Source: Candidatus Saccharibacteria bacterium UBA5150 (GTDB lineage: Bacteria > Patescibacteriota > Saccharimonadia > Saccharimonadales > UBA4665). Taken from it: a DNA stretch of 64,000 nt. A program made the position numbers and the translations under genes. The stretch's first letter is position 1. Each line of letters opens with the position of its first letter. Shown here piece after piece: positions 31,673 through 52,827 of this stretch. Location of the stretch: the NCBI GenBank assembly GCA_002413795.1, contig DHXS01000009.1, forward strand, positions 7,820 through 71,819. Reading direction: 5' to 3'. Under the pieces are notes generated by a model. It worked only from the letters and a program-made list of their open reading frames with translations. It had not been told where the DNA came from and made no database searches.

Positions 31673-31712
31673 GTAATAAGTATTGTACTTTAACTTCGAT
31701 ATAAAAAATTCA

Positions 31713-31769: not shown

Positions 31770-31822
31770 TTATGTATGGCTTATGTAGGTAGTCAGGAAT
31801 TTGATGTGCACAAAGCGCTGCT

Positions 31823-32287: not shown

Positions 32288-32324
32288 TAGCGAAATTATA
32301 ACAGAGACAGGCGCGGCTTCCAAT

Positions 32325-33251: not shown

Positions 33252-34379
33252 TTATTGGCCCGGGCAGGCGTCAGCCGTTGAACCCGGGAAAACCTGGATC
33301 TGTTTGCAGATGTTCTGGCCGGCTTCCAGGCTGTAATCGGGGTGCAGGTAGCCGTCGCGGACCGGCAGGCGCACCTGAATACGCCTTAAAACGTCCTGCG
33401 ACTTGCCGGTTGAATCGATTAAGGTTTGGGCGTGCTTAATGGCCAGCTGGTCGGCCGCTACGGTTGAAGCATGGCCGCCGCTATCCCTGAAAACGCTGAT
33501 CGACACCTTGGAATCGTGATAAATCGACCGTAGATCCACTAATATGCTTGTGGTGTTCAGCCCGGTAATGTTCACCGCGCAATTGAGCGGTTTGCGGTCG
33601 GCCTTACAGCTGCCGGCCAGAATCGGGCCGTTGCTGTCGTTGCTTAAATAAGCTTTGTAGTTATAGGTGACGGGATCCGACGAGCTGTTGATCGGGTATA
33701 CGAAGGCTTGCATGGCAAATTTGCTGGTCAGGCCAACAGCGCCAGAGGTGGAATCCAGCGAGGTTACGCTGAACCGGAGCACGCCCGTAGCGCTGGTCCA
33801 GTCTGCCAGCGGCGGCAATTTAGTGGGGTTGGCGGTGTAGTCGCTGTTATCGGCAAAGGTAGAGCCACCATCGCGGGCTTGCCAGTTGATCTGGATGGTA
33901 CCGATAGGAGTGTCAGCCAGAGTGGACGGGTCGCCACCGGTGATGGTGGTGACTTTGGACTGGTCGTTATTGACCGAGCCGTACTCCACAGTCGGCGGAT
34001 TCGGATTAATCAACAGGCAGCTGAAAGTAGTATCAGAGTTGCCTACCTGATTACTCTTAAGAAAAGCCGCGCCGATCCTTTGATCGGCAGGCAAGGCATT
34101 GATGTCACCGTCGCTCAGCACCCCGCAGTCCTTTTTTTCGGACGTGAAGCCGGCCGTAATAGCCTTGGTAGCCGTATTAACACCTGATTCGGCGGCGTAA
34201 TAAGCCTGCTGGCTCAGTTGTTTGTCCAGAGCCTGGCGCTGGTTGTCGCGCATCAGCTGGGCAAAACCGACCGTAATCAGGCTGAGCACCACTAATAAAA
34301 CAATGGCGATAATAATCGCCGCGAAGCCCTGCTGGTTGCCAGCCATTTGACGTCTCTTAACCATGAGCTTATTGTACAT
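33252..34379 (-). CDS. PilX-like pilus assembly / minor pilin-associated protein
   Basis: The N-terminus GFAAIIIAIVLLVVLSLITVGFAQLMRDNQRQA..AYYAAESG resembles the PilX_N pattern. Confidence 0.6.
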   Translation of the reverse strand: MYNKLMVKRRQMAGNQQGFAAIIIAIVLLVVLSLITVGFAQLMRDNQRQALDKQLSQQAYYAAESGVNTATKAITAGFTSEKKDCGVLSDGDINALPADQRIGAAFLKSNQVGNSDTTFSCLLINPNPPTVEYGSVNNDQSKVTTITGGDPSTLADTPIGTIQINWQARDGGSTFADNSDYTANPTKLPPLADWTSATGVLRFSVTSLDSTSGAVGLTSKFAMQAFVYPINSSSDPVTYNYKAYLSNDSNGPILAGSCKADRKPLNCAVNITGLNTTSILVDLRSIYHDSKVSISVFRDSGGHASTVAADQLAIKHAQTLIDSTGKSQDVLRRIQVRLPVRDGYLHPDYSLEAGQNICKQIQVFPGSTADACPGQ

Positions 34380-38200: not shown

Positions 38201-39034
38201 TTAGAGCACCGGTGGCAAGAATGTTCGACGGTACCATAACAGGATGGTGTGACCGAACAGCTGTACAACAATTGCGCCCACGATCAGGAATGGCCCGAAA
38301 GGAATGGTGCTGTTGCGCTGCAGTTTTCTGGCGAGCAGTAGCGGCAGGCTGGCCAGACTGCCCAATAGGGCGGCACTGAAGATCATCAGCAGACTGCGGG
38401 CCGGCGTGGCGGCTATTAAGCCAAGCAGCCAGCCCAATTTAACGTCGCCGCCGCCAATCCACTTGCCGGCCGAAACCTGAAACAAAACGTAAAAGACTCC
38501 GCCGCCCACGGCCACCGCCAGTACGGTATTGAGCACTTCTCTGCCCGGATGGACCGCCGTAGCCGCCGCTACGCCGGCAAAAACCAGCGCCACGAGCGTC
38601 AGAGGATACAGCAGTCTGTCGGGCAGTAACAGCCAGCGTAAATCATACACAATCAAGGCCATAAAGCCGGTCAGTAAGGCCAGCCACAGCCCGAAAAGCA
38701 CTGTTTGGCTGCCCTGCACCGGCACTGGCCACCAGAAGTACGAAAGTACAAATAACAGGGCTGTAGCCGCTTCTACCAACGGATATTGACGTGATATCGG
38801 TTTATGGCAGTAGCGGCACTTGCCGCGCAGACTCAGCCAGCTGAACAGCGGCACCAAATCCCTAACGGCCAGCGCGTGCCTGCAGTGAGGGCACATGGAG
38901 CGGCCTTTCAGAATGGAAAGCTCCTGCCCGGTCTTTTTAGACTTTGCCTGCTCGTGGACCCTGTATACCACAGCATTCACAAAACTCCCCAGGGCCAGCC
39001 CCAACACCGCCAGAACAATATAAATCATTAGCAA
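38201..39034 (-). CDS. pilD: Prepilin peptidase (A24 family)
   Basis: CPHCRHAL..LRGKCRYCHKPIS zinc motif; polytopic; GGGDVKL. Confidence 0.85.
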   Translation of the reverse strand: MLMIYIVLAVLGLALGSFVNAVVYRVHEQAKSKKTGQELSILKGRSMCPHCRHALAVRDLVPLFSWLSLRGKCRYCHKPISRQYPLVEAATALLFVLSYFWWPVPVQGSQTVLFGLWLALLTGFMALIVYDLRWLLLPDRLLYPLTLVALVFAGVAAATAVHPGREVLNTVLAVAVGGGVFYVLFQVSAGKWIGGGDVKLGWLLGLIAATPARSLLMIFSAALLGSLASLPLLLARKLQRNSTIPFGPFLIVGAIVVQLFGHTILLWYRRTFLPPVL

Positions 39035-39710: not shown

Positions 39711-40940
39711 TTAGCCGCCGCCGGGATTGGTAAAGCCGGATTGGTTCACCAGGCCGTAAATTGGCAATAAAATGGCGGCCACGATAATCAGGGCTATGAT
39801 GCCCATAATCACCATCATGACCGGTTCGATGATGGTGCTGACGTTCTTAATCTCGTTGTCGACCTCTTTTTCGTAGTAGTCGGCTACCTTGGCCAGCATG
39901 GTTTCCATGGCGCCGGACTGCTCGCCGATGTGGAGCATGTTGGGGACCAGTTCCAGGAAATTCGGGTCTTTGCCGATGGCGTCGGATAAGGCCGTGCCGC
40001 CCTTCACTTTTTCGATGGCGTTCTTTAGAGATTTTTCGATGTGGACGTTGTCGACGGCTTCGCCGGTAATTTCCAGCACCTGAATCAGCGGTACGCCGCT
40101 GGCCACCAAGGTGGTGCCGGTGCGGGCAAAGCGGGCCATGTACATTTTCATAAATAGATTGCCGATCGGCCAAGCGCGCATTTTCACTTTATCGATTATA
40201 CTGCGACCGCCAAGGGTGCGAGCCCAGCGGCTGCCAAAGAAGATGGCCAAGCCGAGCAAAATCAGTACCGCCCACCAGCGGTGGGTTATAAAGTGCGAAA
40301 TGGCTAGCAAAAAGCGGGTTACGAACGGCAGTTGGGCGCCCGGCAGGCCGGCATAAATGTTCTGGACCTGCGGCAGGACCTTAACAATCATGAATGTCAC
40401 CACGGCTATCATGACCAGCAGGACGATTAGGGGGTAAATCATAGCGCCGCGGACCTTGCTGATAATGTCGGCGTCTTTTTCCTGCTGGTTGGCCAGGCGT
40501 TCCAGCCCGCTGTCGAGCGTACCGGAAGTCTCGCTGGCGGCTACCAGGCTGACGTAGACCCGGTTAAAGACCCGCGGGTGCTTTTCGAGGGCCACGCTGA
40601 AGGCTTTGCCGCCTTCGACATCGGCAATAACCTGGTTGATAACTACTTTTAGCGGCTTATTGGGCGTCTGCTGGGAAACACTGCGCAGGCTCTGCACCAG
40701 GGGCAGACCGGCGTTTATAAGCGTCGACAGCTGACGGCTGAACAGGACCTTATCTTTGGTCCTAATACGCCTTTTGAAGATTCGGCCACCGGCACTGTCC
40801 TTGGTGGGAACAATCGAAATCGGCGTCAGGCCTTCGTCGTGTATCAGCTTGGCGGCGGCCTGCTCGTTATCAGCCTGAACCTGCGCCTTAACCTTCTCGC
40901 CGGTGGCCGAGTTGCGAGCTTCGTAATTAAAGGTCAGCAT
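39711..40940 (-). CDS. pilC: Type IV pilus platform protein (GspF/PilC family)
   Basis: Duplicated T2SSF domains. 409 aa. Confidence 0.9.
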   Translation of the reverse strand: MLTFNYEARNSATGEKVKAQVQADNEQAAAKLIHDEGLTPISIVPTKDSAGGRIFKRRIRTKDKVLFSRQLSTLINAGLPLVQSLRSVSQQTPNKPLKVVINQVIADVEGGKAFSVALEKHPRVFNRVYVSLVAASETSGTLDSGLERLANQQEKDADIISKVRGAMIYPLIVLLVMIAVVTFMIVKVLPQVQNIYAGLPGAQLPFVTRFLLAISHFITHRWWAVLILLGLAIFFGSRWARTLGGRSIIDKVKMRAWPIGNLFMKMYMARFARTGTTLVASGVPLIQVLEITGEAVDNVHIEKSLKNAIEKVKGGTALSDAIGKDPNFLELVPNMLHIGEQSGAMETMLAKVADYYEKEVDNEIKNVSTIIEPVMMVIMGIIALIIVAAILLPIYGLVNQSGFTNPGGG

Positions 40941-40947
40941 GGGGGTG

Positions 40948-42024
40948 TTAGCTCCTCATCAGCCTGTCCAGCTCATCGATATCAACCGCGTAATTGCGGG
41001 CTTCGTCGTAGGTAATGGTGCCGGCGTGAATCAGGCTGACCAATTGCTTATCCATCGATTGCATGCCGAATTCGGTGCCGGTTTGGATAACGGCTTCCAG
41101 CTGGTGGCTCTTGCCTTCGCGGATGATGTTGCGCACCGCCGGGGTGGCCACCAGGATTTCGGCCGCCGCGATGCGGCCGCCGCCAATCGACGGTATCAGG
41201 CGCTGGGAAACGATAGCCATTAAAATATTGGACAGCTGAGCCCGGATTTGGGGCTGCTGGTGCGGCGGGAAGACGTCAATCATGCGGTCAATGCTCTGCG
41301 AGGCGCTGTTGGTATGCAGAGTGGCCAGCACCAGGTGGCCGGTTTCGGCGATGGTAATGGCGCTGGCGATGGTTTCCAGGTCGCGCATCTCGCCGATCAG
41401 CACAACGTCGGGGTCTTCGCGCAGGGCACTGCGCAGGGCGGCGCTGAACGAATAGGTATCGTAGTGGACTTCCCTCTGTACGATCACCGATTTTTGAGAT
41501 TTGTGGGTGAATTCGATCGGATCTTCGATGGTAATGATGTGCGAGGCCCGTTCCTGGTTGATTTTATGGATCATGGCCGACAGCGAAGTCGATTTGCCGG
41601 AGCCGGTCGGGCCGGTCACCAGCACCAGGCCGCGCGGGAACTCGGTGAATTTATTGACGATTTGCGGCAGACCGAGCTGTTCAATGCTCAGGATCTCGTT
41701 GGGAATCAGGCGCATGGCGGCGGCCAGATTGCCGCGCTCGTGGAAAGCGTTAACGCGGAAGCGGCCCAGGTCGCCATAAGCGAAGCTAAAGTCGAATTCC
41801 TTGTCTTTTAATAGGATTTGCTTCTGGTCTTCGTCCAGAATGGAAAAGACCAGCACTTCGACGGCTTCTTCATTAAGCGGATCGGCGCCGGTTACAGGGG
41901 TCAGAGCGCCGTCGACACGCAGCATCGGCGGCAAGCCTACCTGCAGGTGCAGGTCGGAAGCCTTCTTTTTAATAACTTCGTCGAGTAGGACCTCGATTCT
42001 TGGTTGCGCTGCTGCCATATCCAC
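40948..42024 (-). CDS. pilT: Twitching-motility retraction ATPase
   Basis: GPTGSGKSTS, the PilT-type AIRNIIREGK motif, and a size of 358 aa. Confidence 0.9.
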   Translation of the reverse strand: MDMAAAQPRIEVLLDEVIKKKASDLHLQVGLPPMLRVDGALTPVTGADPLNEEAVEVLVFSILDEDQKQILLKDKEFDFSFAYGDLGRFRVNAFHERGNLAAAMRLIPNEILSIEQLGLPQIVNKFTEFPRGLVLVTGPTGSGKSTSLSAMIHKINQERASHIITIEDPIEFTHKSQKSVIVQREVHYDTYSFSAALRSALREDPDVVLIGEMRDLETIASAITIAETGHLVLATLHTNSASQSIDRMIDVFPPHQQPQIRAQLSNILMAIVSQRLIPSIGGGRIAAAEILVATPAVRNIIREGKSHQLEAVIQTGTEFGMQSMDKQLVSLIHAGTITYDEARNYAVDIDELDRLMRS

Positions 42025-42036
42025 CCTTTCTAGTCT

Positions 42037-43854
42037 TTACAGGTTGTCATCGGCCGCTACCCGGTTAATTTCATCCAGCGTAGTCAGCCCGGCCAGAGCT
42101 TTCAGGTAACCGTCCTGCCGCATAGTCACCATGCCTTCTGCCTGAGCGGCGTGCTCGATTTCCGTGCTGGTAGACTGCTTCATGATCAGGCCCTGAATGG
42201 CCTCCGACACGTTAAAGGCCTCAAATAAGCCCACTCGACCCTTGTAGCCGCCTGGCGTGTCGGGGGTATCCGTACCCTTGCTTAAAGTATAAGCGGTTTG
42301 GCTCTTTAAGGGCAAGCTTTTATAGCCCAGATTGGGAGCCAGGCTAGCCGCTTGTTCGGCGGTATCCGGCAGGAGAGACCCGAGCGTGGCCTGGATGGCG
42401 GCCGTTTCGGCGGCCGTCGATTGATAGGTTTGGCGGCCTTCGGGGGCAATGCGCCGCACCAGCCGCTGGCCGATGACGGTACGGACGGTACTGGCAATCA
42501 GGAACGGTTCGACGCCCATATCTAAAAGGCGCGGCAGAATGCCGGCGGCGCTGTTGGTGTGCAGGGTGCTGAACACCAGGTGGCCGGTCAGGGCGGCCTG
42601 GACGGCCAATTGGGCGGTTTCTTTGTCGCGAATCTCGCCGACCATCACCACGTCGGGGTCCTGGCGCAGAATACTGCGCAGGCCCGAGGCAAAGGTCAGG
42701 CCGACCTCCGGGTTGACCTGAATCTGGTTAATGCCGTCCATTTTGTACTCTACCGGGTCTTCCAGGGTGACGATGTTAACGGCGTCGTTTTTGACCTCCT
42801 GGAGCATTGAGTACATCGAAGTCGACTTACCCGAGCCGGTCGGGCCGCTGGTCAGAATCATGCCGTTGGTCTGCTTGAGGCCCTCACGGATAACGTTGAG
42901 CGGCCGGCCGTTGTAGCCCATGTCTTCCAGTTTCAGCGAGGTCCCGGTTTTATCGAGCAAACGGATGACCACCTGCTCGCCCCAGACAATCGGCGCGATG
43001 GCAATACGCAGGTCGATGCTCTTATTATTACCAGCCAGAAAAGTAAACTGGCCGTCCTGCGGGGTGCGGTGTTCGTCGATTTTCAGGTTGGATAAAATTT
43101 TAATGCGCGAGATCAGCGCCGCTTCGGTGTTTTTGGGCAAACGCATGACTTCGCGCAGGACGCCGTCGACGCGGCAGCGTACCTTAACCTCTTTTTCCAT
43201 CGGCTCGATGTGAACGTCGCTGGCGCGGTTTTGGGCGGCGAATTCCAGGATGGCCGACAGGGCTTTGCTGATCGGCGAATCTTCGACCAGATCTTTAATG
43301 CTAATGACTTTGTTCTTGTTGCCTTTAACGGCCGCGGCCGTGCCCTCGGGCTCCTTGCCGGTAGCATCCAGGTGAGATTGCAGGGTGTCGTCAATTTGGG
43401 TGTCCAGGCGGGTACTGTATTGGCGTAATACCTGGCGGATGCCGGCCTCGCTGGCGGCATACACTTTTAGAGGCTTGGCGATGCGGTTGCTCAAAAAATC
43501 GACGGCCTGGACGTTATCGGCGTCCAGCATGGCTACCACCAGCCGGTGCTGCATTTGCCCCAGCGGCACGGCCATGTAGCGCTCGGCGATGTCCTGCGGC
43601 AGTAATTTAAGGATTTTGGGGTCGATTCGGGCCTGCGTCAGGTTAACGTAAGGCACTTTAGTAATGCCGGCGTGGGCTTTGGTCAGCTGTTCATCGGTAA
43701 TGTAGCTGTTCTTAACCATGTAACTAAGCAGGGGTTCACTGGCCTTGTCGGCTTCGGTCTTGGCCTGGGCCAGCTTGTCGGCCGTCACCATGCCGGCTTC
43801 CAACAAGGCAGCCTCTACTTGCTGCTGACTGCTGGCCGATAAAACAACACTCAT
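42037..43854 (-). CDS. pilB: Type IV pilus assembly ATPase (GspE/PilB)
   Basis: N-terminal GSPII-like domain, SGPTGSGKSTS. 605 aa. Confidence 0.9.
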   Translation of the reverse strand: MSVVLSASSQQQVEAALLEAGMVTADKLAQAKTEADKASEPLLSYMVKNSYITDEQLTKAHAGITKVPYVNLTQARIDPKILKLLPQDIAERYMAVPLGQMQHRLVVAMLDADNVQAVDFLSNRIAKPLKVYAASEAGIRQVLRQYSTRLDTQIDDTLQSHLDATGKEPEGTAAAVKGNKNKVISIKDLVEDSPISKALSAILEFAAQNRASDVHIEPMEKEVKVRCRVDGVLREVMRLPKNTEAALISRIKILSNLKIDEHRTPQDGQFTFLAGNNKSIDLRIAIAPIVWGEQVVIRLLDKTGTSLKLEDMGYNGRPLNVIREGLKQTNGMILTSGPTGSGKSTSMYSMLQEVKNDAVNIVTLEDPVEYKMDGINQIQVNPEVGLTFASGLRSILRQDPDVVMVGEIRDKETAQLAVQAALTGHLVFSTLHTNSAAGILPRLLDMGVEPFLIASTVRTVIGQRLVRRIAPEGRQTYQSTAAETAAIQATLGSLLPDTAEQAASLAPNLGYKSLPLKSQTAYTLSKGTDTPDTPGGYKGRVGLFEAFNVSEAIQGLIMKQSTSTEIEHAAQAEGMVTMRQDGYLKALAGLTTLDEINRVAADDNL

Positions 43855-43869
43855 GGCCGCGAGGTCCTT

Positions 43870-44121
43870 TTATGGCGCACTGGCACTAAAGGGATCAGGG
43901 TTGGGATTCTGACCGATAGTAATCTGCTTGGTGGGGTCGAAAGCCTTGTTGTTGAAGTAAGCGGGATTAGGCGTTGGGAAATCGGCGGTGATCGGCTGGA
44001 CGACTTCGGCCTGTTGTTGGCGGGTCTTGGGCGAGCCAAATAACAGATTGGAAGCCACCAGCGAGATTACGGCGCTTAGAAAAACGACTGCGGCCAGTAA
44101 GGCTAGATCTTTTTGCTTCAT
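43870..44121 (-). CDS. Small membrane-anchored pilus-locus protein
   Basis: 83 aa with one TM helix and a Pro/Asn-rich tail. It overlaps the upstream gene. Confidence 0.45.
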   Translation of the reverse strand: MKQKDLALLAAVVFLSAVISLVASNLLFGSPKTRQQQAEVVQPITADFPTPNPAYFNNKAFDPTKQITIGQNPNPDPFSASAP

Positions 44122-44795
44122 TTGACCACCTTCTTGGTAATATTAAGGCTTTTAGCGGGCTGGTAATAGGTATGTGCCTTGACGGTCAAGGTCAGGTTAT
44201 TGGCGCCGCCGGCCAGATTGATGGAATCGATCTGGATCGGGCGGATAGACTGCTGAAGAGCCGAGATTAGTTGCTGAACGGATAAATAGTTGGCGTTGCC
44301 GACGCTAAACGAGAACGGCATGGGCACCGGCTGGGGTGACGGGCTGGAGCTGTTGCCCTGCTGGGTCAGCTGGTCGTCAATACCGGTAATGTCAGTAACG
44401 TGCAGGTTGCGGTCGATCAGGATTTTTTCCAGGCTGGAGGTCAGCGCCGGGAAGTCGTAAGCGCTCGGCAAGGCATCCAGCACGATCTTGGTATTATGAC
44501 CGTCGTTATCGCCCTTGCCGTTGCTGCTGCCGCCAATTACGTTGGTAGACTTGCTGTCAAATGCCTGATACGAATCAGCCAGACTGCTAAAGGCTTTGAC
44601 GTTCTTCTGCAATTGGCTGTGGGCCTTTTCTTTAGCGGTGGTAACTTTGGCCTGGTAGCGGGTTTGGACCCATACCGAGTGGGCGGCGAACAGACAGAAG
44701 ATCGTTATGAACGAGGCCGCGGCCACAATGCCGACCACCTGGGCGTTGGCCTTGCCGATGGCGCCCCATTTATCGGAGATTTGTTTATTGGCCAT
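44118..44795 (-). CDS. PilO-like pilus assembly protein
   Basis: TM helix plus coiled coil, in the position after pilN. Confidence 0.55.
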   Translation of the reverse strand: MANKQISDKWGAIGKANAQVVGIVAAASFITIFCLFAAHSVWVQTRYQAKVTTAKEKAHSQLQKNVKAFSSLADSYQAFDSKSTNVIGGSSNGKGDNDGHNTKIVLDALPSAYDFPALTSSLEKILIDRNLHVTDITGIDDQLTQQGNSSSPSPQPVPMPFSFSVGNANYLSVQQLISALQQSIRPIQIDSINLAGGANNLTLTVKAHTYYQPAKSLNITKKVVK

Positions 44796-45495
44796 TGGTT
44801 GCTCCCTTGCTGGTTGGCGGCGCGGCCTGGAACAAATCGGTCGGTTGGGTGGCTTCGGAACGGGTGGTCACCTGGGTAGGTACATCCAGTTTAACTTTTT
44901 GGGTGATGTCGAAAATTGTCTTGTCATAAGACAAAGTAATGGTATAGGAAGCCGCCTGTGAGGGATTCTTGGTGTCGTTATTCAAAGCAAAACTACCCAG
45001 CACAATATTGTTAAAGGCCGCCGCGGCCTTGCTATTGGTGTCGGTGGTATATTTGGTGAACTTCAGTGTATCGACATACTTGTTGACGTTACTCAGGGCA
45101 TCGGCCGTGCCGGTAATGGTGACGGTCTGCTGGGTAAAATCAATATCGAAAGTGCTGATGGCGACCTGGGTCGGGGTAACCTGGTTCAGGTAATCAAACA
45201 GCTGTGAGGCGGCCGGCTTGGCGTCGTGCAGGGCGGTCAGGCTTTCCAGCTGGTTCTGGACGGTCAGAATTTTGGTAATCTGCGGCTCTTTCTGCAGTTT
45301 TTGGCTGTCGGTGGCAATATCGCGGCTCAAATCGGACAAATGTTTCTTTTGCAGGCCACTGACGCTCAATAATAAGAGTAAAAGCACCAGTGAGGCGGTG
45401 CCGACTATAAGGGCGATGCTGACCGCCAGGCGCCGGGCGCGCTGGGCCTTAATGTATTCCAGTTTGACGTCGGGAAGCAGGTTAAGCTGGATCAT
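44785..45495 (-). CDS. pilN: PilN-like pilus assembly protein
   Basis: MIQLNLLPDVK is the INLLP motif, followed by a TM helix. Confidence 0.75.
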   Translation of the reverse strand: MIQLNLLPDVKLEYIKAQRARRLAVSIALIVGTASLVLLLLLLSVSGLQKKHLSDLSRDIATDSQKLQKEPQITKILTVQNQLESLTALHDAKPAASQLFDYLNQVTPTQVAISTFDIDFTQQTVTITGTADALSNVNKYVDTLKFTKYTTDTNSKAAAAFNNIVLGSFALNNDTKNPSQAASYTITLSYDKTIFDITQKVKLDVPTQVTTRSEATQPTDLFQAAPPTSKGATNGQ

Positions 45496-46535
45496 GACGC
45501 ACTCCTCTGGGCCAGCCCGGCGGCCACGCCGAACTGGTTAGATACCGCCGCCAGCTCGTTCTGGCGCTCCAGGCTGAAGCCGACGTTGCGCCAGGCATTG
45601 CCAATCTCAACGCTCATACCGAACTTATTAGCCACGTACAGGGGGAATTCGGGCAGAACCGAGGCGCCGCCGCTGACAATAATGTGCTCCAGCTTGCTAC
45701 TGCTGTAGCGGGTCTGGAAGAACTTAATAGACTTTTCAATTTCGGCCGTTAACAGGTCGATTGTCGAGTTAATCGACTGGAAGACCTGCCCTTCCAGCTT
45801 GTCTTTGCTTAGGCCAAATTTAAAGACGAATTGCTCGGCCTGCTTGGCATCGATGTTAAGGTTTTGGGTGGCGGCCCGCACAATCGCTTCCACGCCGGTC
45901 GGAATACTGCGGGTTAGGCTGGGTACGCCGTTGCGCAAAATCACCAGGTCGGTCGACAAGCGACCCATATCGAGTATTAGTTGCGGTTCGGCATCCGGCG
46001 CGGCCAGGGCGCGGGCCATAGCCAGATTGTCCGGCTCAAAAGCAATAACGTTCAGCCCGATCGACTCCAGCAGGTCCAGCCGGCCCTCGATGAACTTGTT
46101 GGGAACAGAGGTCAGCAGGACTTCCTGTTTGGTCTTATCAACTTCCGAATCGCCGATCAGCGCCCAGTCAATCTTGGATTCGGCCAGCGGCGTCGGAATC
46201 AGCGAATCGGCCTGGTAACGGATAGCCTGGTCGAGTTCGGAGTTGGGCAGGCGGTCGGCATCGGCCACCGTCGTGAAAACCCGGCTGGAGGGAATGCCCA
46301 CGGCCACGTTCTTGGTGCCAACCTTGGCCTGGGCCACCAGCTGAGCGATTAACTTGGCCAGTTTCTGCTGGTCACCCTTGGCTTCGCTGAGCGATAAGTT
46401 GCCTTCCAGCGGCACGTAAGCGTACTTCAGCAAGGCCTTCGGCACGGTGTTACCACGCAGTTCGACCAGCCGCACGGCGGTTGAACCGATATCGAGGCCG
46501 AAAAAGTCGGCGTGGCCGGCGTCAAAAATGCTCAT
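45492..46535 (-). CDS. pilM: PilM, actin-like pilus assembly ATPase
   Basis: FGLDIGSTAVRLVEL..SGGAS shows the actin fold. 347 aa. Confidence 0.85.
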   Translation of the reverse strand: MSIFDAGHADFFGLDIGSTAVRLVELRGNTVPKALLKYAYVPLEGNLSLSEAKGDQQKLAKLIAQLVAQAKVGTKNVAVGIPSSRVFTTVADADRLPNSELDQAIRYQADSLIPTPLAESKIDWALIGDSEVDKTKQEVLLTSVPNKFIEGRLDLLESIGLNVIAFEPDNLAMARALAAPDAEPQLILDMGRLSTDLVILRNGVPSLTRSIPTGVEAIVRAATQNLNIDAKQAEQFVFKFGLSKDKLEGQVFQSINSTIDLLTAEIEKSIKFFQTRYSSSKLEHIIVSGGASVLPEFPLYVANKFGMSVEIGNAWRNVGFSLERQNELAAVSNQFGVAAGLAQRSAS

Positions 46536-46547
46536 AATCTAGCTCCG

Positions 46548-46561
46548 ATTATAGCATAAGC
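46548..46561 (-). promoter_or_regulatory. Extended -10 promoter of the pilM operon (rc GCTTATGCTATAAT)
   Basis: A perfect TGnTATAAT element 12 nt upstream of the pilM ATG. Confidence 0.5.
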
Positions 46562-46634: not shown

Positions 46635-49600
46635 TCATAAGACCGGGGATAAGCTAGTGATCGAGTCGTAGACGCCGGCCGTCGGGCCGGAGTTCTTATT
46701 TATGGCCGGCTGGGCCAGGTAAATCGCCGGATTAAAGTTAAAGATTTCGCCGGCGCAGTCACCCAGGCTGGTCGTGGTGCTCAGCCCTGCGCCCTCGGTG
46801 CCCTTACTGCAGTCACGGTTGCCCGGAGTCTGGACGTTTTCACCATCCACACTGAACCTTAGCGAGCCGAAGGTACGGTCCAGGTGGACTTTATTGGCTA
46901 TGAAGGCCCCGTTCACCAGTAGCTGGCGGTGACAGGTGCTGTATTTACTGCCGTTATCGAAGCGGCCATTGGCCGAGGCACACGAATCAATATTGCCGCC
47001 ACTGCCGCTAGACGGCTGGGCTACCAGAATGGCATCCAGCCGGCTGACCGCCGGGTCAATGTAGATGTTGCCGCCCTTGGCAATAATGTACACCGAAGGT
47101 ATATCACCGGTTTTAGTCCACGAGCTGTTCTGGAAAACAATGTCGGAGGTTATGTAGGCATTGCCCTTCACGTAAATGGCAATCGCCTTGCCGTCGGCAA
47201 TCAGGCCGCCGTTAATCTTCTGGGACGTGCTGGCCGGCGGCTGGTAATAGGAGGCTTTGTCCAAAGAACTCACGTTAATATCGGCCCCGGACGTGTTTGG
47301 TGTAGCCAGGCTGGCCGGTTTGGTGGCAAAGTAATCCGATATGCAGTGCGTGCCGCCCAGCAGGCCGCCATTATTGGGGGCCGGCAGGCTACTGCCGCTA
47401 ATCCCCTTGGTATTGGAGAACGTTAGCCCTATCGGCGCCAGCGCAAATGGATTGGGATCGGTCGGTTTCTGGGTCCGCAGGTTGGCACTGCTAAAGCCCA
47501 GAATCTGGTTAATCGACAAGGCCCCAAACTGCGTGCCGGAGCCCCGCTTCTTACCATCATAGGTATAGGTGTAAATACTGCCATCGCTGGTACAGGTGCT
47601 ATCCGCGAAACTGCCTCCCGCCGACACATCACTGCCAAAGGCATGGGTGTACGGCTCGTTGACAATGTTCGACGAACAAACTTCCGGCGCGCCGTAGCTG
47701 CCACTCTGTGAGACGTGCACGATGCGACCGTCATAATTATCAACCAGTCCGGTCAGCCAAGATGCCGTCAGATCCATACATATACGGTCGCCTATTCTAA
47801 GCGGCGGAACGCTAACACTTGCCGAATCGGTAGCTTGCGTGCTGGTATTGCCGGATGCCGGTAAAGCAGGTGGAATAACCGTCCCGCCGCCGGATGACTT
47901 GCTATAAAGCGAAACTGCCGAGCCATCTACGCTACGCACAAGGTAGTTGGCCGCCCAATCCATCTCGCGCTGAATAGGCACCCGTACCGGTGCGTTCGGA
48001 TCGGGCGGCGTCCACGGCAAATATCCAGGCTTAGGCGACTCCAGACCATAATTAATGGCTAGGGTGCTGGAGAAATTAACGGTATTGGGATCCTCATTAC
48101 TAGGACTCAACAGGACGTTATTGCCATGCGTACCGCCGGTATCCATATTAAAATTGCGGTTGTAGCACGGGGACAGGTCCTTGGGATGATATATGAACGG
48201 CAAGCCCTGGTTGGGAGTAATGCCGGTAAGGCTCCATGAACCGCCCGTAACATTACCTTCGGCATCGTAAGTGGCGTTATATACCGCATCCCAGCGATAG
48301 TAATATTCGGTGTAGTAGATGGACATGTGGTGCATGTCGTACGGATACTGCTCTATGAAGTCCGTATAGTCCGCCGAAAATGGATTAGGATGCTGCCCTT
48401 TCGGACTCCATTTATCAGACGTTTGCCCAAATTGATCGTAAAAGGCATCTATCTCGTAATTACCGTTTGGTATATAAGCAGTCGCGGTTTGTCCATCGCT
48501 TGGATTGCCCGGCAAGCCGCCTTGTACACCGCTATCGGGTAGATTGAATGCATAGTTGGGATCGGGCATGCTGGGACAACCGATTCCCTGACAACCTGGT
48601 TGCCCTGGTGTGCACGATCCACCACAGGGTATGGTGCCTACATCTCCCGAATCTTGATAGGGGGGCCAAGTAGCCGGATTACTAGGATCACCGCCATTAT
48701 GATAATGCCGCTCTATTACCCAATGCAGGTCGCCCTTGGCATTATAGTTCCAGGTTTTACTGACGCCTTGTCCTAAATGGTATTTATATGCAATGAAGCC
48801 ATTAGCATCGGCGATTGACACATAAGTATTGGTGCTATAGGTTTTCCCGTTAACTGTGTGTGTGCGATCATCGGTGACTGTCATTTGATAACAACCTGGG
48901 GTAGGTCCACCGCAACTTGCTTTCGCAGTATATGGTGGTCCCGTACTCGTTGGAGGTTGCCATTGACCGTTATCATCTTGTAATATCAAATAATAATTTT
49001 TGCCACTTATGCCGTTTGGTATAGTGCCAGAGGCATAGCCAGCCTTGTTAGTGGAACTGTCAACGTCTGTACTGAAGCCGTTGCGAGATGAATTTTGATG
49101 AACAATTTTAAATCGCGTCGGTAAACCAGGATCGTCAGCATCGGATCCGGCGACAATGTAATCAATTTGACCCCCATTGCATTGGAGATTGATACTACCT
49201 TGCGGGTTGCTATTTTTCACCGTGAAGCACTGGGGTTTTGACTGCTTTACGACGTGCGAAGCAACGACATTTTCCTCGTGAGGGTTCCAGCCATTAGGAT
49301 CGTAGTCTGGGAAGTATTTAATATTGCGCGTAAACCTTACTGACACATTCAGCCTGGCACAAAAACCCCCTTCCACTGACTTAGGTAAGTTCAAGTCAAA
49401 AGAATAACCATTGGAGCTATTTGTAGCATTTTCCCAATAAACCATCTGGCCCTGTTTAAGGCAGTCCTCTACTCCATTGACATGGTCGTTTGGATTGTAT
49501 GCTATCGGGCTTGAATTGTCTCCGTTTTTTATTTTCGAATCATCATAACTGGACCCAGTACCGATATCTCTATAGTTATAGACTGTGCCGAAGGTTTTGT

Positions 49601-50087
49601 TTCCGTCTCCTGGGCAAGTAGAGGCATGCCCATGATCTGAGCCCCCTGGCTCATTTATATGCTGAATATTGTTAAAGTTTTGCGGCTCTTGACTGCCATT
49701 AGGCGAGCCCAAAAGTTGGGGTTCACCGTCTATGGTAACCCATACTAGTACTTCTGTATTCTGTCGATTATTATTTTTAGGCCCACCAGTAGTCGAATTA
49801 TATCCTCCTGTAAAATGTATAGTGCTACCAATATTACGAATAGTCTGGCCATATGCGGTTCCGTACTTACCACTATCTTGATCTTGACCAACTAAGTTAA
49901 TATTATCTGTGTATGCGGGATCGGATCCGCACAAAAAACTGTAAGGGAAGTTGTCAACGTCATTTGGCTTTGAGCCTCCCTGACAAACAGACCCAAACCC
50001 ACGAGTTGCGTATGTAGTGCTATGGCTTAAAGAAAAAAGGCCAAGGAGCGCAAGTAAACCAACCACCACCAAATATATTTTTTTCAT
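46635..50087 (-). CDS. Large secreted protein of unknown function, upstream of the pilus operon
   Basis: 1150-aa ORF with signal peptide MKKIYLVVVGLLALLGLFSLSHSTTYA. Rich in G/N/P/Y/S. No prepilin motif. Confidence 0.8.
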   Translation of the reverse strand: MKKIYLVVVGLLALLGLFSLSHSTTYATRGFGSVCQGGSKPNDVDNFPYSFLCGSDPAYTDNINLVGQDQDSGKYGTAYGQTIRNIGSTIHFTGGYNSTTGGPKNNNRQNTEVLVWVTIDGEPQLLGSPNGSQEPQNFNNIQHINEPGGSDHGHASTCPGDGNKTFGTVYNYRDIGTGSSYDDSKIKNGDNSSPIAYNPNDHVNGVEDCLKQGQMVYWENATNSSNGYSFDLNLPKSVEGGFCARLNVSVRFTRNIKYFPDYDPNGWNPHEENVVASHVVKQSKPQCFTVKNSNPQGSINLQCNGGQIDYIVAGSDADDPGLPTRFKIVHQNSSRNGFSTDVDSSTNKAGYASGTIPNGISGKNYYLILQDDNGQWQPPTSTGPPYTAKASCGGPTPGCYQMTVTDDRTHTVNGKTYSTNTYVSIADANGFIAYKYHLGQGVSKTWNYNAKGDLHWVIERHYHNGGDPSNPATWPPYQDSGDVGTIPCGGSCTPGQPGCQGIGCPSMPDPNYAFNLPDSGVQGGLPGNPSDGQTATAYIPNGNYEIDAFYDQFGQTSDKWSPKGQHPNPFSADYTDFIEQYPYDMHHMSIYYTEYYYRWDAVYNATYDAEGNVTGGSWSLTGITPNQGLPFIYHPKDLSPCYNRNFNMDTGGTHGNNVLLSPSNEDPNTVNFSSTLAINYGLESPKPGYLPWTPPDPNAPVRVPIQREMDWAANYLVRSVDGSAVSLYSKSSGGGTVIPPALPASGNTSTQATDSASVSVPPLRIGDRICMDLTASWLTGLVDNYDGRIVHVSQSGSYGAPEVCSSNIVNEPYTHAFGSDVSAGGSFADSTCTSDGSIYTYTYDGKKRGSGTQFGALSINQILGFSSANLRTQKPTDPNPFALAPIGLTFSNTKGISGSSLPAPNNGGLLGGTHCISDYFATKPASLATPNTSGADINVSSLDKASYYQPPASTSQKINGGLIADGKAIAIYVKGNAYITSDIVFQNSSWTKTGDIPSVYIIAKGGNIYIDPAVSRLDAILVAQPSSGSGGNIDSCASANGRFDNGSKYSTCHRQLLVNGAFIANKVHLDRTFGSLRFSVDGENVQTPGNRDCSKGTEGAGLSTTTSLGDCAGEIFNFNPAIYLAQPAINKNSGPTAGVYDSITSLSPVL

Positions 50088-50170
50088 AAAACAATGTCGT
50101 TTATGCTTTTAAGCATACACAACTGTTGGTATAGGTGTAAATAGTAATAGGGGCTTGCTTTACTTCTGGC

Positions 50171-50797
50171 TTATACGGGTTTGGCGTATACAGCAAACTC
50201 TGTTGCTGCTTTAGGAGCGGTAATGTCCATATTATCTCGATAATGTCCTGCGGTTCGAGTATGGCTCGTAGGCTTAGGGAAATAGAAATGATGATCGTTC
50301 GTAATCTTCATTATTGCGCATAATTTAGCACGCTTAAGATGATAACTATAATCGACAAGGCTAGGTGCGTATTCTGTTACATCAATAGCTATACCGTGGC
50401 TTCCCTTGCGTTTGTAACCCGAGGTCTTACGATGCTTATAGCCAGGTATACCTAGGGAAGTTCCTAATACAATCGGACAGCTTCTGCTTAACTCTTTCTC
50501 TTTTTTTATTACATTCGGGTCAGTTGCAGTATGTTGGTTGTCGCTCGATAACTTACGGGGTGCTTCGGGGGACATAAATGAGCTGGCAGTGTGGCCAGGC
50601 ATGGCTTCTGCGGAAACAGTTGCGGCTTTAGCGATACCTAAAGTCGCTATAACGGCACCCCCGATAGCCAGAGCTTTATTCAAAGTTAAAAACCGACTCT
50701 GCTCTTCTGGAGCAGCTTCAATTGTGGATGCTGGGGCGTACTCTGGAGGGGTCATGGAACCCGCCTCGTTTACATAATTACAAGGCAATAGTACCAC
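50171..50797 (-). CDS. Hypothetical secreted/membrane-anchored protein (low GC)
   Basis: 208-aa ORF with one hydrophobic segment. No motif recognised. Confidence 0.45.
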   Translation of the reverse strand: MVLLPCNYVNEAGSMTPPEYAPASTIEAAPEEQSRFLTLNKALAIGGAVIATLGIAKAATVSAEAMPGHTASSFMSPEAPRKLSSDNQHTATDPNVIKKEKELSRSCPIVLGTSLGIPGYKHRKTSGYKRKGSHGIAIDVTEYAPSLVDYSYHLKRAKLCAIMKITNDHHFYFPKPTSHTRTAGHYRDNMDITAPKAATEFAVYAKPV

Positions 50798-50837: not shown

Positions 50838-51209
50838 TTAAGCTGTAACCGGATCAAATAAACGAAGATTTGGTATCTTTTCAAAATCCTCAGTATTGTG
50901 TGTCCATAAGGTAAGGTCGTTAACCAGTGCTGTGGCGGCAATGATTGAGTCAGGCAGTTCGGCGTTCACCGTTCGTCGAATCTCAATGACTTTACCTGTA
51001 ATTGCATCGTCAAATAGATGATTCTTCATGGTGACAAATAAATCTTCAAAATACTGTGCATCGGTGTTGTCTATATCCTTATAGCCAAGCACCTCGGCAA
51101 TGACAATATTACAGGTATGCAGTCTTGCATCATGTAATTGGGCAGCAATTTTCTCGCCTAGCTCAGGATCACGAAGATAAATCAGTATATTACTATCCAG
51201 CAGGGTCAA
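50838..51209 (-). CDS. vapC: PIN-domain toxin
   Basis: MTLLDSNILIYL and acidic residues typical of PIN domains. 123 aa. Confidence 0.8.
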   Translation of the reverse strand: MTLLDSNILIYLRDPELGEKIAAQLHDARLHTCNIVIAEVLGYKDIDNTDAQYFEDLFVTMKNHLFDDAITGKVIEIRRTVNAELPDSIIAATALVNDLTLWTHNTEDFEKIPNLRLFDPVTA

Positions 51210-51460
51210 GGCTTTATTTCTTTCCGCGGGTCACTCCATAAGCGCTGTTTGCGTTGCCAGTCTACGGGATTGGCTATGCCCTTAATAGCTCCAGACTTTT
51301 TACCATAACTAACGAGAGCGGCTAGAGCCTGCCGTTGTTTATCAAGAGGCTCTTCTATAGTAACTTTGTCGCCCAGCTTGAGGTTATTATCATCAATGTA
51401 GCGCTTCGGTACACGAAGTGCGTATGAATTGCCTGTTTTGGTAACAATGCCTTGTGTCAT
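51206..51460 (-). CDS. vapB: AbrB/MazE (SpoVT-AbrB) type antitoxin
   Basis: GNSYALRVPKRYIDDNNLKLGDKVTIEE. It overlaps vapC by 4 nt. The track's N-terminal extension overlaps the neighbouring gene. Confidence 0.7.
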   Translation of the reverse strand: MTQGIVTKTGNSYALRVPKRYIDDNNLKLGDKVTIEEPLDKQRQALAALVSYGKKSGAIKGIANPVDWQRKQRLWSDPRKEIKP

Positions 51461-51522
51461 ACGTTCAATTGTACTTACACGTACTAACAAAGTCAAGCGC
51501 TTGTGGTTATCCTTGTGCATAT

Positions 51523-52827
51523 CTAAGCCATGCACTGCGGGTTGGTTTCGCTCATCCAGAGCGGCGGCACAAAAAATGGCACGCCGGGTTTGCCGTAGCG
51601 GTTTATCAGCGCGGTGTTCCATTCTTCGTTCACATTAGAGTCCAGCTGGTATAGTGACAGTCTTTTAATATTTGGATCGGCGCATACGTTACTAAGGACT
51701 GCTGTCAAAAGTCTTGCCCAGTTAGCGGCCGATATGATACCGGCCTGCATGCCGTACTCATCTATTAAAACGCCCGGCTTCTGGTTAGCCGTGGTGGCCA
51801 GCAGACCATTCTTATAGGCCGCCGTAATGAATGACTCGTAGGTCGCCAAAGAATCAATGCCGATTTCAGGAGCGGTCGGCGGCAATTGAAGATTTAGCGG
51901 CGGCAAGGGGCCGTCGCCCCAATCTTTAAAGCGTTTGTAGGGGTGAATGGCGATACCGTCTGCCGGTAGCGGAGTGCAGTGCGGGCCTTCTTTTGGCGGG
52001 CATTCCAGCACCTGTTGCTCAAAAACCAGCGGCGAGTCCGAAGAACTTAGTTCGCCCTGCACTACTTCGTCGTTCGGGTTGACTGCCTTAATGGCGTTGT
52101 AGGCGGCTATGTGCATGGCGCGTTCGGTTTGCGGCAGGCTTTTGCTCGGTAAAGCTTGCAGCCATTTATCTTCTACGTTATTCGGTTCATTGCATGAAGT
52201 AAGTTCGCTTACCAGCCCGTCATAACGCCGCGCTACCCGGCCCGCGAAACTGCCGTATTGGTCAGCCGATTCCCATTGGCGATGATTGCAGGCCAGTGTT
52301 ACTTCTACTTTGTAGCCACAATCCACGGCGGCCTTTATGGCCGTGGTGGAATTTGTTCGGAAAGCCGGGTCACTATATCGGTCAGGATAGATTATAAACC
52401 TCTGCCACTTGGCGCCAAGACCGCGGCCCAGCATCAGCAACGCCTCACGGCGGCCCTGGTTGTTTAAAACAATGCCGCCATCGTCCTCAACACCCAGCTC
52501 CAGGTGCGGTGCGGTAGTTTCGGTAGATGTGTCGCTGATATGGCTATTTACAATTTGCCGGGCTAGATAGTGATTATCCGAGCCCGATTGGTAATGCTTC
52601 AATTGATTCAGCCCGCTGGGAGTGACGCAAGAGGGCGGCAACGATGTGACTGCCTCGGGTTGAGGTAACAGACTGACAGCCGGCGGCAAAGCACCGGGTG
52701 CGGCCGGGGTTTCGGCGCTGGCTGTGCTGGGGTTTGGGCCCATTAAGGCGATCGTGGACAGGCCGGCTATTAGCAGTCGGCGAGCGGCGCTCGAACCGTG
52801 AGGGAGTTCCGGGCCATGTTCAATCAT
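51523..52827 (-). CDS. Secreted glycoside-hydrolase-like protein (TIM-barrel, GH5-like NEP motif)
   Basis: Signal-like N-terminus (RRLLIAGLSTIALMG..ASA). SCNEPNN and LIDEYG are candidate catalytic Glu motifs. This is a weak call. Confidence 0.5.
   Translation of the reverse strand: MIEHGPELPHGSSAARRLLIAGLSTIALMGPNPSTASAETPAAPGALPPAVSLLPQPEAVTSLPPSCVTPSGLNQLKHYQSGSDNHYLARQIVNSHISDTSTETTAPHLELGVEDDGGIVLNNQGRREALLMLGRGLGAKWQRFIIYPDRYSDPAFRTNSTTAIKAAVDCGYKVEVTLACNHRQWESADQYGSFAGRVARRYDGLVSELTSCNEPNNVEDKWLQALPSKSLPQTERAMHIAAYNAIKAVNPNDEVVQGELSSSDSPLVFEQQVLECPPKEGPHCTPLPADGIAIHPYKRFKDWGDGPLPPLNLQLPPTAPEIGIDSLATYESFITAAYKNGLLATTANQKPGVLIDEYGMQAGIISAANWARLLTAVLSNVCADPNIKRLSLYQLDSNVNEEWNTALINRYGKPGVPFFVPPLWMSETNPQCMA

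What the first reader, a model, noticed from the sequence alone, without database searches (positions are those of the whole stretch)
46635..50087. The giant secreted protein next to the pilus operon shows a GC-composition break within the ORF
Seen: a 1150-aa ORF with a clear signal peptide lies directly upstream of pilM, and no family is recognisable. Hand-counted 60-nt lines give ~53-57% GC in the 3' part (e.g. 47041, 47701, 48001). In the 5' part the average is roughly 40-45%, with individual lines from 30% to 55% (48781, 48901, 48961, 49081, 49381, 49801). The low-GC tract continues into the neighbouring genes up to ~51.5 kb. Inference: the N-terminal ~450 residues may have been replaced by recombination or horizontal transfer together with the adjacent genes, giving a conserved C-terminal anchor with a variable N-terminal module. 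That pattern is expected for a surface protein under diversifying selection, such as a host-contact factor. The C-terminal half contains repetitive beta-rich segments (..GNAYITSDIVFQNSS..GGNIYIDPAVSRLDAILVAQ..).
Basis: partly seen in the sequence, partly recalled or inferred. Interest (0 to 1): 0.6.

Follow-up and report, generated by a model that had tools for sequence, protein, structure and literature searches.

The report
Mosaic secreted protein beside pilus operon
A 1150-residue secreted protein next to the type IV pilus genes of a tiny Saccharibacteria genome has a conserved tail and a swappable, AT-richer head, which makes it a candidate for how these bacteria recognise their host cells, although its function is untested.

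Summary
The composition shift is real. Third-codon-position GC is 0.39 in codons 1-570 and 0.66 after that (LLR 40, against a maximum of 10.7 in 2000 shuffles). A smooth ramp fits as well as a step. The low-GC block (GC3 0.37-0.42) continues through the upstream 208-aa gene and a vapBC pair to about 51.5 kb.

The ORF belongs to a large unannotated protein family (1739 representatives, no Pfam, NCBIfam or PDB match). In relatives of this genome the family gene sits directly upstream of pilM, and often does so in other Patescibacteria classes. Only residues ~800-1150 and an almost invariant C-terminal peptide (...ITSL[S/P]PVL) are shared by all members. Same-genus orthologs share nothing upstream of residue ~750.

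The N-terminal Cys-rich module (aa 1-300) occurs in about 13% of members, always beside an orf208-type gene. Its tree conflicts with the C-domain tree (AU tests, p ≤ 3e-4). One family member is a clear recent chimera.

Low GC3 in the N-part recurs in orthologs (24 of 29), so it is a family-wide trait and not one datable transfer.

Best reading: a pilus-locus-linked surface protein with a recombining N-terminal cassette. PilY1/MshQ-like docking to the pilus tip is inferred, not shown.

The parts
46635..50087 (-). Full 1150-aa ORF (P0001). The public gene call starts only at M402 (749 aa).
   Evidence: The N-terminal 300 aa are conserved in about 28 family members, so they are coding.
50007..50087 (-). 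Sec-type signal peptide, aa 1-27 (MKK + 16 hydrophobic residues + ..TYA). It is not a prepilin leader.
   Evidence: Read from the sequence. There is no N_methyl hit. The alignment consensus has KK...AARG.
49188..50006 (-). N-module, aa 28-300. A Cys-rich domain with invariant C35, C53, C158, C209, C243 and C287. GC3 is 0.40.
   Evidence: The AlphaFold model was poor (pLDDT 43.5).
48528..49187 (-). aa 301-520, a nearly orphan stretch shared by only 3-17 of 206 relatives. GC3 is 0.39.
48353..48410 (-). Support interval for the best single GC3 change-point (codons 559-578). A ramp fits equally well.
47688..48527 (-). aa 521-800, a semi-conserved all-beta stalk (Ig/FnIII-like sandwiches). GC3 is 0.55.
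46686..47687 (-). Conserved C-domain, aa 801-1134, which defines the family. The core at aa ~920-1130 is modelled at pLDDT above 90. GC3 is 0.70.
46638..46685 (-). Extreme C-terminal peptide (...GVYDSITSLSPVL-COOH). It is nearly invariant across the family yet modelled as disordered.
50171..50797 (-). orf208, a small membrane-anchored protein (public aa). Its family always lies next to big genes that carry the N-module. GC3 is 0.38.
50838..51209 (-). vapC (PIN toxin) inside the low-GC block. GC3 is 0.37.
51206..51520 (-). vapB (MazE/AbrB-type antitoxin, 104 aa). This is the upstream end of the low-GC block.
46548..46561 (-). Promoter-like box GCTTATGCTATAAT just upstream of pilM, suggesting that pilM has its own promoter.
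39711..46535 (-). pilM-pilN-pilO-(83 aa)-pilB-pilT-pilC core of the type IV pilus operon, directly downstream. GC3 is 0.67-0.74 for the named pil genes and 0.60 for the 83-aa ORF.
33252..34379 (-). 375-aa PilX_N / GspK-like minor pilin, the candidate docking partner for the C-terminal peptide.
   Evidence: The Southlakia counterpart SEML1_0116 maps to the GspK fold.
50128..50143 (-). Upstream copy of an exact 16-nt direct repeat (TATTTACACCTATACC), 56-41 nt before the ATG.
47562..47577 (-). Second copy of the 16-nt direct repeat, at codons 836-841 near the start of the C-domain.

Best explanation
The ORF encodes a Sec-exported modular surface protein. It belongs to a large uncharacterised Patescibacteria family that is genomically tied to the type IV pilus operon.

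The protein has five parts:
- a signal peptide;
- a variable N-terminal 'head', here a Cys-rich module of about 300 aa plus an orphan stretch;
- an Ig-like beta stalk;
- a conserved C-terminal domain of about 330 aa;
- an almost invariant C-terminal peptide.

The head, together with one or two small membrane-protein genes just upstream (here orf208, with a vapBC module alongside), forms a hypervariable cassette. Homologous recombination exchanges or replaces this cassette between lineages, with crossovers in the conserved C-domain and in the conserved upstream flank (MFS / 434-aa gene).

The low GC3 marks this cassette. In high-GC Saccharibacteria, core genes and the C-domain sit near GC3 0.7. 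The cassette stays near 0.4, either because it comes from an AT-richer accessory pool or because it escapes whatever force raises GC in recombining core DNA. GC3 therefore climbs along the gene in step with conservation.

Shown here: the mosaic architecture, the linkage to pilM, the family-wide GC3 pattern, and recombination within the family.

Inferred: the conserved C-domain and C-terminal peptide dock the protein to a conserved partner, most plausibly the pilus tip complex through the GspK-like minor pilin, as PilC/PilY1/MshQ do. The variable head would then contact the host bacterium.
For: GC3 and the extent of the low-GC block.

Family size and lack of annotation.

Graded conservation along the protein. 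All 206 relatives cover aa ~850-1075, 25-80 cover aa 525-750, 3-13 cover aa 300-500, and about 28 cover aa 1-300. In 50-codon bins GC3 correlates with this coverage (Spearman 0.84).

Synteny. The order MFS-[variable]-big gene-pilMNO-83aa-pilBT is kept across the family. The C-domain profile hits 64 of 301 Patescibacteria genomes and 13 of 14 genomes of the same order. In 9 of 14 sampled loci, including other classes, the hit ORF lies in a pilus cluster, mostly directly upstream of pilM.

Cassette linkage. An orf208-family gene lies next to the N-module in 7 of 7 loci. Relatives with other heads (G001, G002, G023) carry other low-GC3 small membrane genes in the same place.

Recombination. P0176 is 96-100% identical to P0161 over aa 1-600, then switches to 86-100% identity with P0167. 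P0056 and P0080 have C-domains 98% identical but N-modules only 28% identical. AU tests reject congruence of the two trees in both directions, including for the window's own protein (p = 1.7e-4).

Family-wide GC3. The N-part is lower than the C-domain in 24 of 29 orthologs (means: N-part 0.475, C-domain 0.547, core 0.573). It never exceeds core GC3, and the deficit grows with core GC3.

C-terminal peptide. It is nearly invariant yet modelled as disordered. The PilC/PilY1/MshQ/CpaL precedent for C-terminal beta-strand complementation of PilK/GspK pilins is in PMC12918778. A GspK-like minor pilin is present in the locus.
Against: - Nothing places the protein on the pilus or on the cell surface.
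- pilM appears to have its own promoter.
- The cultivated Saccharibacterium Southlakia epibionticum has a functional, essential T4P1 locus that starts at pilM, with no such gene upstream. The protein is therefore not a universal pilus component.
- The locus already holds a minor pilin with an extra domain (396 aa) that could serve as tip adhesin.
- The C-domain shows no fold or sequence similarity to the PilY1 propeller.
- For this genome no donor or close N-module relative is known, so exchange is inferred from the family and not observed here.
- A ramp fits GC3 as well as a step, so no discrete crossover point is visible.
Confidence: 0.6

Rival explanations
1. One recent horizontal transfer into this genome. 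A single ~3.2-kb low-GC segment (vapBC, orf208 and the 5' half of the ORF) was imported from a lower-GC donor and has not yet ameliorated.
For: GC3 is uniformly 0.37-0.42 across four unrelated coding units from 48.5 to 51.5 kb. vapBC modules are typically mobile (established knowledge). The same-genus genomes lack orf208, vapBC and the N-module. An exact 16-nt direct repeat brackets the variable part.
Against: No integrase, tRNA or other island mark was seen at the tract. The nearest N-module relative is only 38% identical. The same GC3 deficit appears in orthologs with unrelated heads (G001, G002, G018, G023, G025). A ramp fits as well as a step. N-part GC3 never exceeds core GC3 in any of 29 genomes and partly tracks it, which is not what random imports from a shared pool would give.
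Confidence: 0.25
2. The low GC3 is purely an in-place compositional steady state. The hypervariable part is too divergent to take part in homologous recombination or is under weak codon selection. It therefore drifts towards the AT-biased mutational equilibrium while the recombining core is pushed to high GC. No transfer is needed.
For: GC3 ramps along the gene in step with conservation. The deficit appears only where core GC3 is high and is absent in low-GC genomes. N-part GC3 is never above core.
Against: The 434-aa neighbour is as divergent between same-genus genomes (29% identity) yet keeps GC3 0.60. Recombination and module swapping are directly seen in the family. The force that raises GC in these genomes is unknown.
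Confidence: 0.35
3. The protein is a cell-envelope-anchored adhesin or surface-layer-like protein that is only co-located with the pilus genes. The C-domain would anchor it to the cell wall, not to the pilus.
For: It has a Sec signal, a beta-rich stalk and a variable outer part. pilM has its own promoter box. Southlakia builds its pilus without a gene at this position.
Against: Adjacency to pilM is kept across Patescibacteria classes, which is hard to explain without a functional tie. No known wall-anchoring domain (LysM, SLH, sortase signal) was detected.
Confidence: 0.3
4. Artefact: a chimeric metagenome assembly, or a shift caused by amino-acid composition or a translation ramp at the 5' end.
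For: The genome is a 25-contig metagenome-assembled genome. One Logan contig ends at 48956, inside the low-GC part.
Against: Two further assemblies agree across the junction. The reading frame is open throughout, and both halves have homologs within single proteins elsewhere. The shift is at third codon positions, with similar amino-acid composition along the protein. It spans 570 codons, far more than a start-proximal ramp.
Confidence: 0.03

Closest known systems
PilC / PilY1 tip adhesins of type IVa pili (Neisseria, Pseudomonas, Myxococcus)
   Same: Both are large (~1000-1200 aa), Sec-exported, non-pilin proteins encoded in a type IV pilus locus. Both have a divergent N-terminal part and a conserved C-terminal domain. 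Both have a short conserved extreme C-terminal peptide; in PilC/PilY1 that peptide complements the beta-sheet of the PilK/GspK-family minor pilin (PMC12918778).
   Different: There is no sequence or fold similarity to the PilY1/PilC beta-propeller. The gene sits upstream of pilM and not inside the minor-pilin operon. The host has no secretin. Docking is untested here.
MshQ of the Vibrio cholerae MSHA pilus
   Same: MshQ is a ~1200-residue protein with no PilY1 homology, recognised only by synteny and by a modelled C-terminal strand that complements the PilK homolog. The same kind of argument is used here.
   Different: MshQ lies directly after the minor pilins mshDOP, whereas this gene lies before pilM, about 8-12 kb from the minor pilins.
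PilX1 / PilX2 of Nanosynbacter lyticus TM7x (PMC11623550)
   Same: These are Saccharibacteria pilus-locus proteins proposed as host-binding tip adhesins, with lectin-like extra domains and no PilD-type signal.
   Different: PilX1 and PilX2 are pilin-fold 'lollipop' proteins with an N-terminal helix. The window's likely counterpart is the 396-aa minor pilin, not this ORF. The ORF has no pilin domain and is three times larger.
Allelic pilin / minor-pilin islands and low-GC surface-antigen cassettes (for example Pseudomonas pilA groups, O-antigen loci). This comparison is from my own knowledge.
   Same: Variable, often AT-richer gene cassettes lie between conserved flanks and are exchanged by homologous recombination in those flanks, together with cognate accessory genes.
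   Different: Here one crossover flank lies inside the gene itself (the conserved C-domain), so the exchange produces chimeric proteins.

Membership tests
PilC/PilY1 (Pfam PF05567 Neisseria_PilC) | C-terminal beta-propeller domain homologous to PF05567 | tested here: not met
   No Pfam or NCBIfam hit. A profile search against PDB sequences gave 0 hits. Foldseek on the aa 480-1150 model gave only generic Ig/FnIII matches.
PilC/PilY1 (Pfam PF05567 Neisseria_PilC) | Sec-exported non-pilin protein encoded in a type IV pilus locus | tested here: met
   Signal peptide without a prepilin motif. The gene is directly upstream of pilM in most loci.
PilC/PilY1 (Pfam PF05567 Neisseria_PilC) | Extreme C-terminal ~10-residue strand that complements the PilK/GspK-family minor pilin | not testable with these tools
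   A nearly invariant C-terminal peptide, disordered in the model, is present, and a GspK-like pilin is in the locus. No multimer modelling was available.
PilC/PilY1 (Pfam PF05567 Neisseria_PilC) | Encoded within the minor-pilin operon (pilVWX-Y1 order) | tested here: not met
   The gene lies upstream of pilM. The minor pilins lie at 33.2-38.2 kb, downstream of pilD.
Type IV pilins / minor pilins | Class III (prepilin) leader with an N-methylation motif and a hydrophobic N-terminal helix | tested here: not met
   No N_methyl or TIGR02532 hit, whereas four neighbouring pilins do hit N_methyl.
Integrative genomic island | Integrase, tRNA target and flanking att repeats, with deviant composition | tested here: not met
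   Composition is deviant. None of the genes called in the tract is an integrase, and no tRNA gene lies near it. The only repeat is one 16-nt pair inside the gene, and it is not recurrent.
Polymorphic toxin / contact-dependent inhibition systems | Conserved N-terminal delivery part, variable C-terminal toxin, immunity gene immediately downstream | tested here: not met
   The polarity is reversed. The variable part is N-terminal and the linked small gene is upstream. No toxin domain was detected.
Diversity-generating retroelement target | Reverse transcriptase and template repeat near a variable region | tested here: not met
   No RVT_1 match in the 88.5%-complete genome. No internal or nearby template-like repeats.

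The most novel reading that the evidence does not exclude
This family is the Patescibacteria counterpart of PilY1/MshQ. It would be a non-pilin pilus-tip protein that locks into the GspK-like minor pilin through its invariant C-terminal peptide. Its recombining N-terminal cassette, together with a cognate small membrane protein, would set which host bacterium the episymbiont can attach to.
Probability: 0.3. Interest if true: 0.75.

Novelty: new variant of a known kind. Interest (0 to 1): 0.55.

Why it matters
How ultrasmall episymbiotic bacteria choose their host cells is largely unknown. Type IV pili are the one appendage already shown to matter in the few cultivated strains.

This work points to a widespread, completely unannotated secreted protein family fixed next to pilM. 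Its outer part is hypervariable, is shuffled by recombination, and is paired with a cognate small gene. That is a concrete candidate for a host-specificity determinant in the uncultivated, mostly environmental Saccharibacteria. The published models do not cover it, because Southlakia has no gene at this position.

There is also an annotation consequence. The atypical composition made the public gene caller drop the first 401 residues, signal peptide included. Members of this family are therefore probably truncated in databases.

The GC shift on its own is ordinary. It is the usual signature of accessory or hypervariable DNA in a GC-richer genome.

Tried and rejected
Read-level checks of the junction and of strain variants could not be done.
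- Structure of the N-terminal half (aa 1-500, six-sequence alignment) came out at pLDDT 43.5 and was unusable. It was not sent to fold search.
- Two collection scans for more N-module loci found only 3. One large alignment failed internally.
- Fold searches of the aa 480-1150 model against PDB and viral libraries gave only generic tandem Ig/FnIII hits and nothing for the C-domain.
- Profile searches of the PDB with the N-module and with the C-half gave 0 hits.
- Pfam on distant homologs found only an incidental beta/gamma-crystallin domain.
- PilD of this genome ends ...LPPVL like the family tail. Only 2 of 2813 ORFs end this way, but PilD orthologs do not, so this was rejected as coincidence.
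- The 16-nt direct repeat bracketing the variable part was tested in 28 orthologous loci and is not recurrent. It is left unexplained.
- No reverse transcriptase is present, so a DGR is rejected.
- Self-BLAST found no sequence repeats in the protein.
- A sharp change-point is not favoured over a ramp.
- The papers read on Saccharibacteria pili do not mention this protein.
Full report
**What is there**

The window lies on contig C12 of a 696-kb, 25-contig, 54.7%-GC genome that is 88.5% complete. Homologs are labelled Candidatus Saccharibacteria / Saccharimonadales.

The ORF at 46635-50087 (-) encodes 1150 aa. It starts with a Sec-type signal peptide and not a prepilin leader. Directly downstream on the same strand lie pilM, pilN, pilO, an 83-aa ORF, pilB, pilT, pilC, a pilin, the prepilin peptidase and four minor pilins. 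There is no secretin.

Upstream on the same strand lie a 208-aa membrane-anchored orphan (orf208), a vapBC pair, a 434-aa protein and an MFS transporter.

**The observation**

GC3 is 0.39 over codons 1-570 and 0.66 afterwards. The one-step LLR is 40.1, against a maximum of 10.7 in 2000 permutations. GC1 shows no detectable shift (LLR 1.1) and GC2 only a small one (0.41 to 0.51, LLR 4.8), and amino-acid composition is similar along the protein, so this is a nucleotide-level effect.

By segment, GC3 runs as follows:

| Segment | GC3 |
|---|---|
| vapB | 0.42 |
| vapC | 0.37 |
| orf208 | 0.38 |
| aa 1-300 | 0.40 |
| aa 301-520 | 0.39 |
| aa 521-800 | 0.55 |
| aa 801-1150 | 0.70 |
| pilM/B/T/C and the MFS gene | 0.73-0.74 |

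The tract is at the 1st-2nd percentile of the genome. A linear ramp fits at least as well as one or two steps (BIC 1526.6, 1531.8 and 1535.3). If one step is forced, it falls at codon 570 (window 48353-48410), not near codon 450.

Two other assemblies reproduce the sequence across the transition, so a chimera is unlikely.

**The family**

Curated libraries and the PDB give nothing. An exhaustive search finds 1739 representative proteins at E ≤ 1e-3, of which 328 reach E ≤ 1e-30. All are unnamed or 'hypothetical'.

Conservation is strongly graded along the query:
- all 206 collected relatives align to aa ~850-1075;
- 25-80 align to aa 525-750;
- 3-13 align to aa 300-500;
- about 28 align to aa 1-300.

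GC3 in 50-codon bins follows this coverage (Spearman 0.84; the bins are autocorrelated).

The N-module is a real domain. It has six invariant cysteines and motifs such as FPYGFxCGSD and EDCGxxGKMVYW. This also shows that the public 749-aa gene call starting at M402 is truncated.

**Structure**

An AlphaFold model of aa 480-1150, built on a 57-sequence alignment, reached pLDDT 79 and pTM 0.70. It is all-beta, with sandwich domains over aa ~510-800 and a C-domain core modelled above pLDDT 90. The last 16 residues are disordered although they are the most conserved part of the alignment (...YDxITSL[S/P]PVL).

Fold searches returned only generic Ig/FnIII tandem matches. The N-half model failed (pLDDT 43.5).

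**Orthologs are not collinear**

In 29 related loci the order MFS-[variable]-big gene-pilMNO-83aa-pilB-pilT is kept. The same-genus genomes G001 and G002 match the query only over aa ~750-1150, at 44-48% identity. Their PilM, PilB, PilT and MFS proteins are 77, 79, 92 and 92% identical.

On a PilMNO tree the N-module is confined to one subclade of the family but is patchy within it, needing at least four changes. The window has the module and its sister same-genus genomes do not.

**The adjacent gene travels with the head**

A profile of orf208 relatives finds a member directly upstream of the big gene in all seven loci that carry the N-module. Among about 24 loci without the module it finds none, except one weak hit.

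Relatives with other heads (G001, G002, G023) carry other small membrane-anchored ORFs (147-159 aa, GC3 0.39-0.46) plus a 300-400-aa ORF at the same place.

**Recombination**

- P0176 is 96-100% identical to P0161 over residues 1-600. It then switches to 86-100% identity with P0167, whose N-part is unrelated.
- P0056 and P0080 share a 98%-identical C-domain but have N-modules only 28% identical.
- Trees of the N-module and the C-domain for 25 holders conflict at well-supported branches.
- AU tests reject the other partition's groupings in both directions. On C-domain data, the window's protein with its nearest N-module relative is rejected at p = 1.7e-4. On N-module data, P0056+P0080 is rejected at p = 7.6e-11. 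Three further tests gave p ≤ 3.3e-4.
- Caveat: the tested groups were chosen after both trees had been seen.

**Why the low GC**

The N-part has lower GC3 than the C-domain in 24 of 29 orthologs (means: N-part 0.475, C-domain 0.547, core 0.573). The deficit is large where core GC3 is high (window 0.45 against 0.74; G001 0.48 against 0.72; G002 0.48 against 0.77) and absent in low-GC genomes.

The N-part never exceeds core GC3 (range -0.30 to +0.01). It tracks the core with slope 0.48, while the C-domain tracks it with slope 0.85. So the shift is a standing, family-wide property of the cassette.

The data do not separate two causes:
- repeated import from an AT-richer accessory pool;
- escape of the hypervariable stretch from whatever force raises GC in the core.

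The ramp and the one-sided deficit lean towards the second. The uniform 0.37-0.42 block that includes a vapBC module, and the 434-aa neighbour that is equally divergent yet has GC3 0.60, lean towards the first.

No integrase or tRNA gene lies at the tract. The only notable repeat is an exact 16-nt direct repeat. It brackets the segment from 56 nt upstream of the ATG to codon 841. It is unlikely by chance but is not recurrent in orthologs, and it remains unexplained.

**Function**

A C-domain profile hits 64 of 301 Patescibacteria genomes and 13 of 14 genomes of the same order. In 9 of 14 sampled loci, several from other classes, the hit ORF lies in a pilus cluster, usually directly upstream of pilM. 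Distant members carry a related conserved tail (...YDGRVxxNPPPG...W.EVVP).

This deep synteny, the Sec export, the conserved C-terminus and the variable head parallel PilC/PilY1 and MshQ. In those proteins the last ~10 residues complement the beta-sheet of the PilK/GspK minor pilin (PMC12918778). The window has a PilX_N/GspK-like minor pilin at 33252-34379. Its Southlakia counterpart maps to the GspK fold.

Against an obligatory pilus role:
- Southlakia's essential T4P1 locus begins at pilM with no such gene upstream.
- pilM appears to have its own promoter.
- A 396-aa minor pilin with an extra domain could itself be the tip adhesin.

I put tip docking at about 0.3-0.35 and a non-pilus surface adhesin at about 0.3. 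A DGR is excluded, since no reverse transcriptase is present.

**Verdict**

The mosaic / co-replacement reading is largely borne out at the family level, but not as a single datable transfer. Function is inferred only.

The GC shift itself is ordinary. The family it exposes is new and unannotated, and resembles PilY1/MshQ in architecture but not in sequence or fold.

Noticed in passing
window 48885-50087: The public gene call for this ORF starts at M402 (749 aa) and leaves about 1.3 kb uncalled. The dropped 401 residues include the signal peptide and a conserved Cys-rich domain. The atypical composition probably misled the gene caller, and other family members may be truncated in databases in the same way.
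   Followed up: yes
window 50128-50143 and 47562-47577: An exact 16-nt direct repeat (TATTTACACCTATACC on the gene strand) brackets the promoter region plus the whole variable part of the ORF. Chance expectation is about 0.006 for the 7-kb region. There is no flanking similarity, and it is not found in 28 orthologous loci.
   Followed up: yes
window 50171-50797; L029, L033, L034, L035, L054, L055: orf208 belongs to a divergent family of ~190-230-aa proteins with one hydrophobic anchor and two conserved cysteines. It is always encoded directly upstream of big genes that carry the same N-module, and G024 has two tandem copies. Its role is unknown; it may be a cognate partner of the N-module.
   Followed up: partly
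window 31598-34379: The order GspK-like minor pilin, xerC-like recombinase, ndk, tRNA-Arg at the end of the pilus locus matches SEML1_0116-0119 of Southlakia epibionticum. At the other end, that organism has ychF directly before pilM, with no MFS transporter or big gene.
   Followed up: partly
L039 (G004), L040 (G049), L066 (G191): Some genomes carry two tandem copies of the family gene upstream of pilM.
   Followed up: no
window 38201-39034: The prepilin peptidase ends ...TFLPPVL, resembling the family's C-terminal ...TSL[S/P]PVL. Only these 2 of 2813 ORFs in the genome end this way, but PilD orthologs elsewhere do not, so it is probably coincidence.
   Followed up: yes
G000:C12 ~131-146 kb (outside the window): Three further long ORFs (1013, 1005 and 1135 aa) have uniformly low GC3 (0.48-0.55). 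They may be other accessory surface proteins.
   Followed up: no
L056-L069 (other Patescibacteria classes): Large ORFs (600-1800 aa) that share only the core of the C-domain also sit directly upstream of pilM and end in a different conserved tail (...YDGRVxxNPPPG...W.EVVP). One carries a beta/gamma-crystallin domain.
   Followed up: partly
window 51206-51622: The mechanical 138-aa ORF for the antitoxin overlaps the end of the 434-aa gene. The public 104-aa call (start near 51520) is the more likely vapB.
   Followed up: partly
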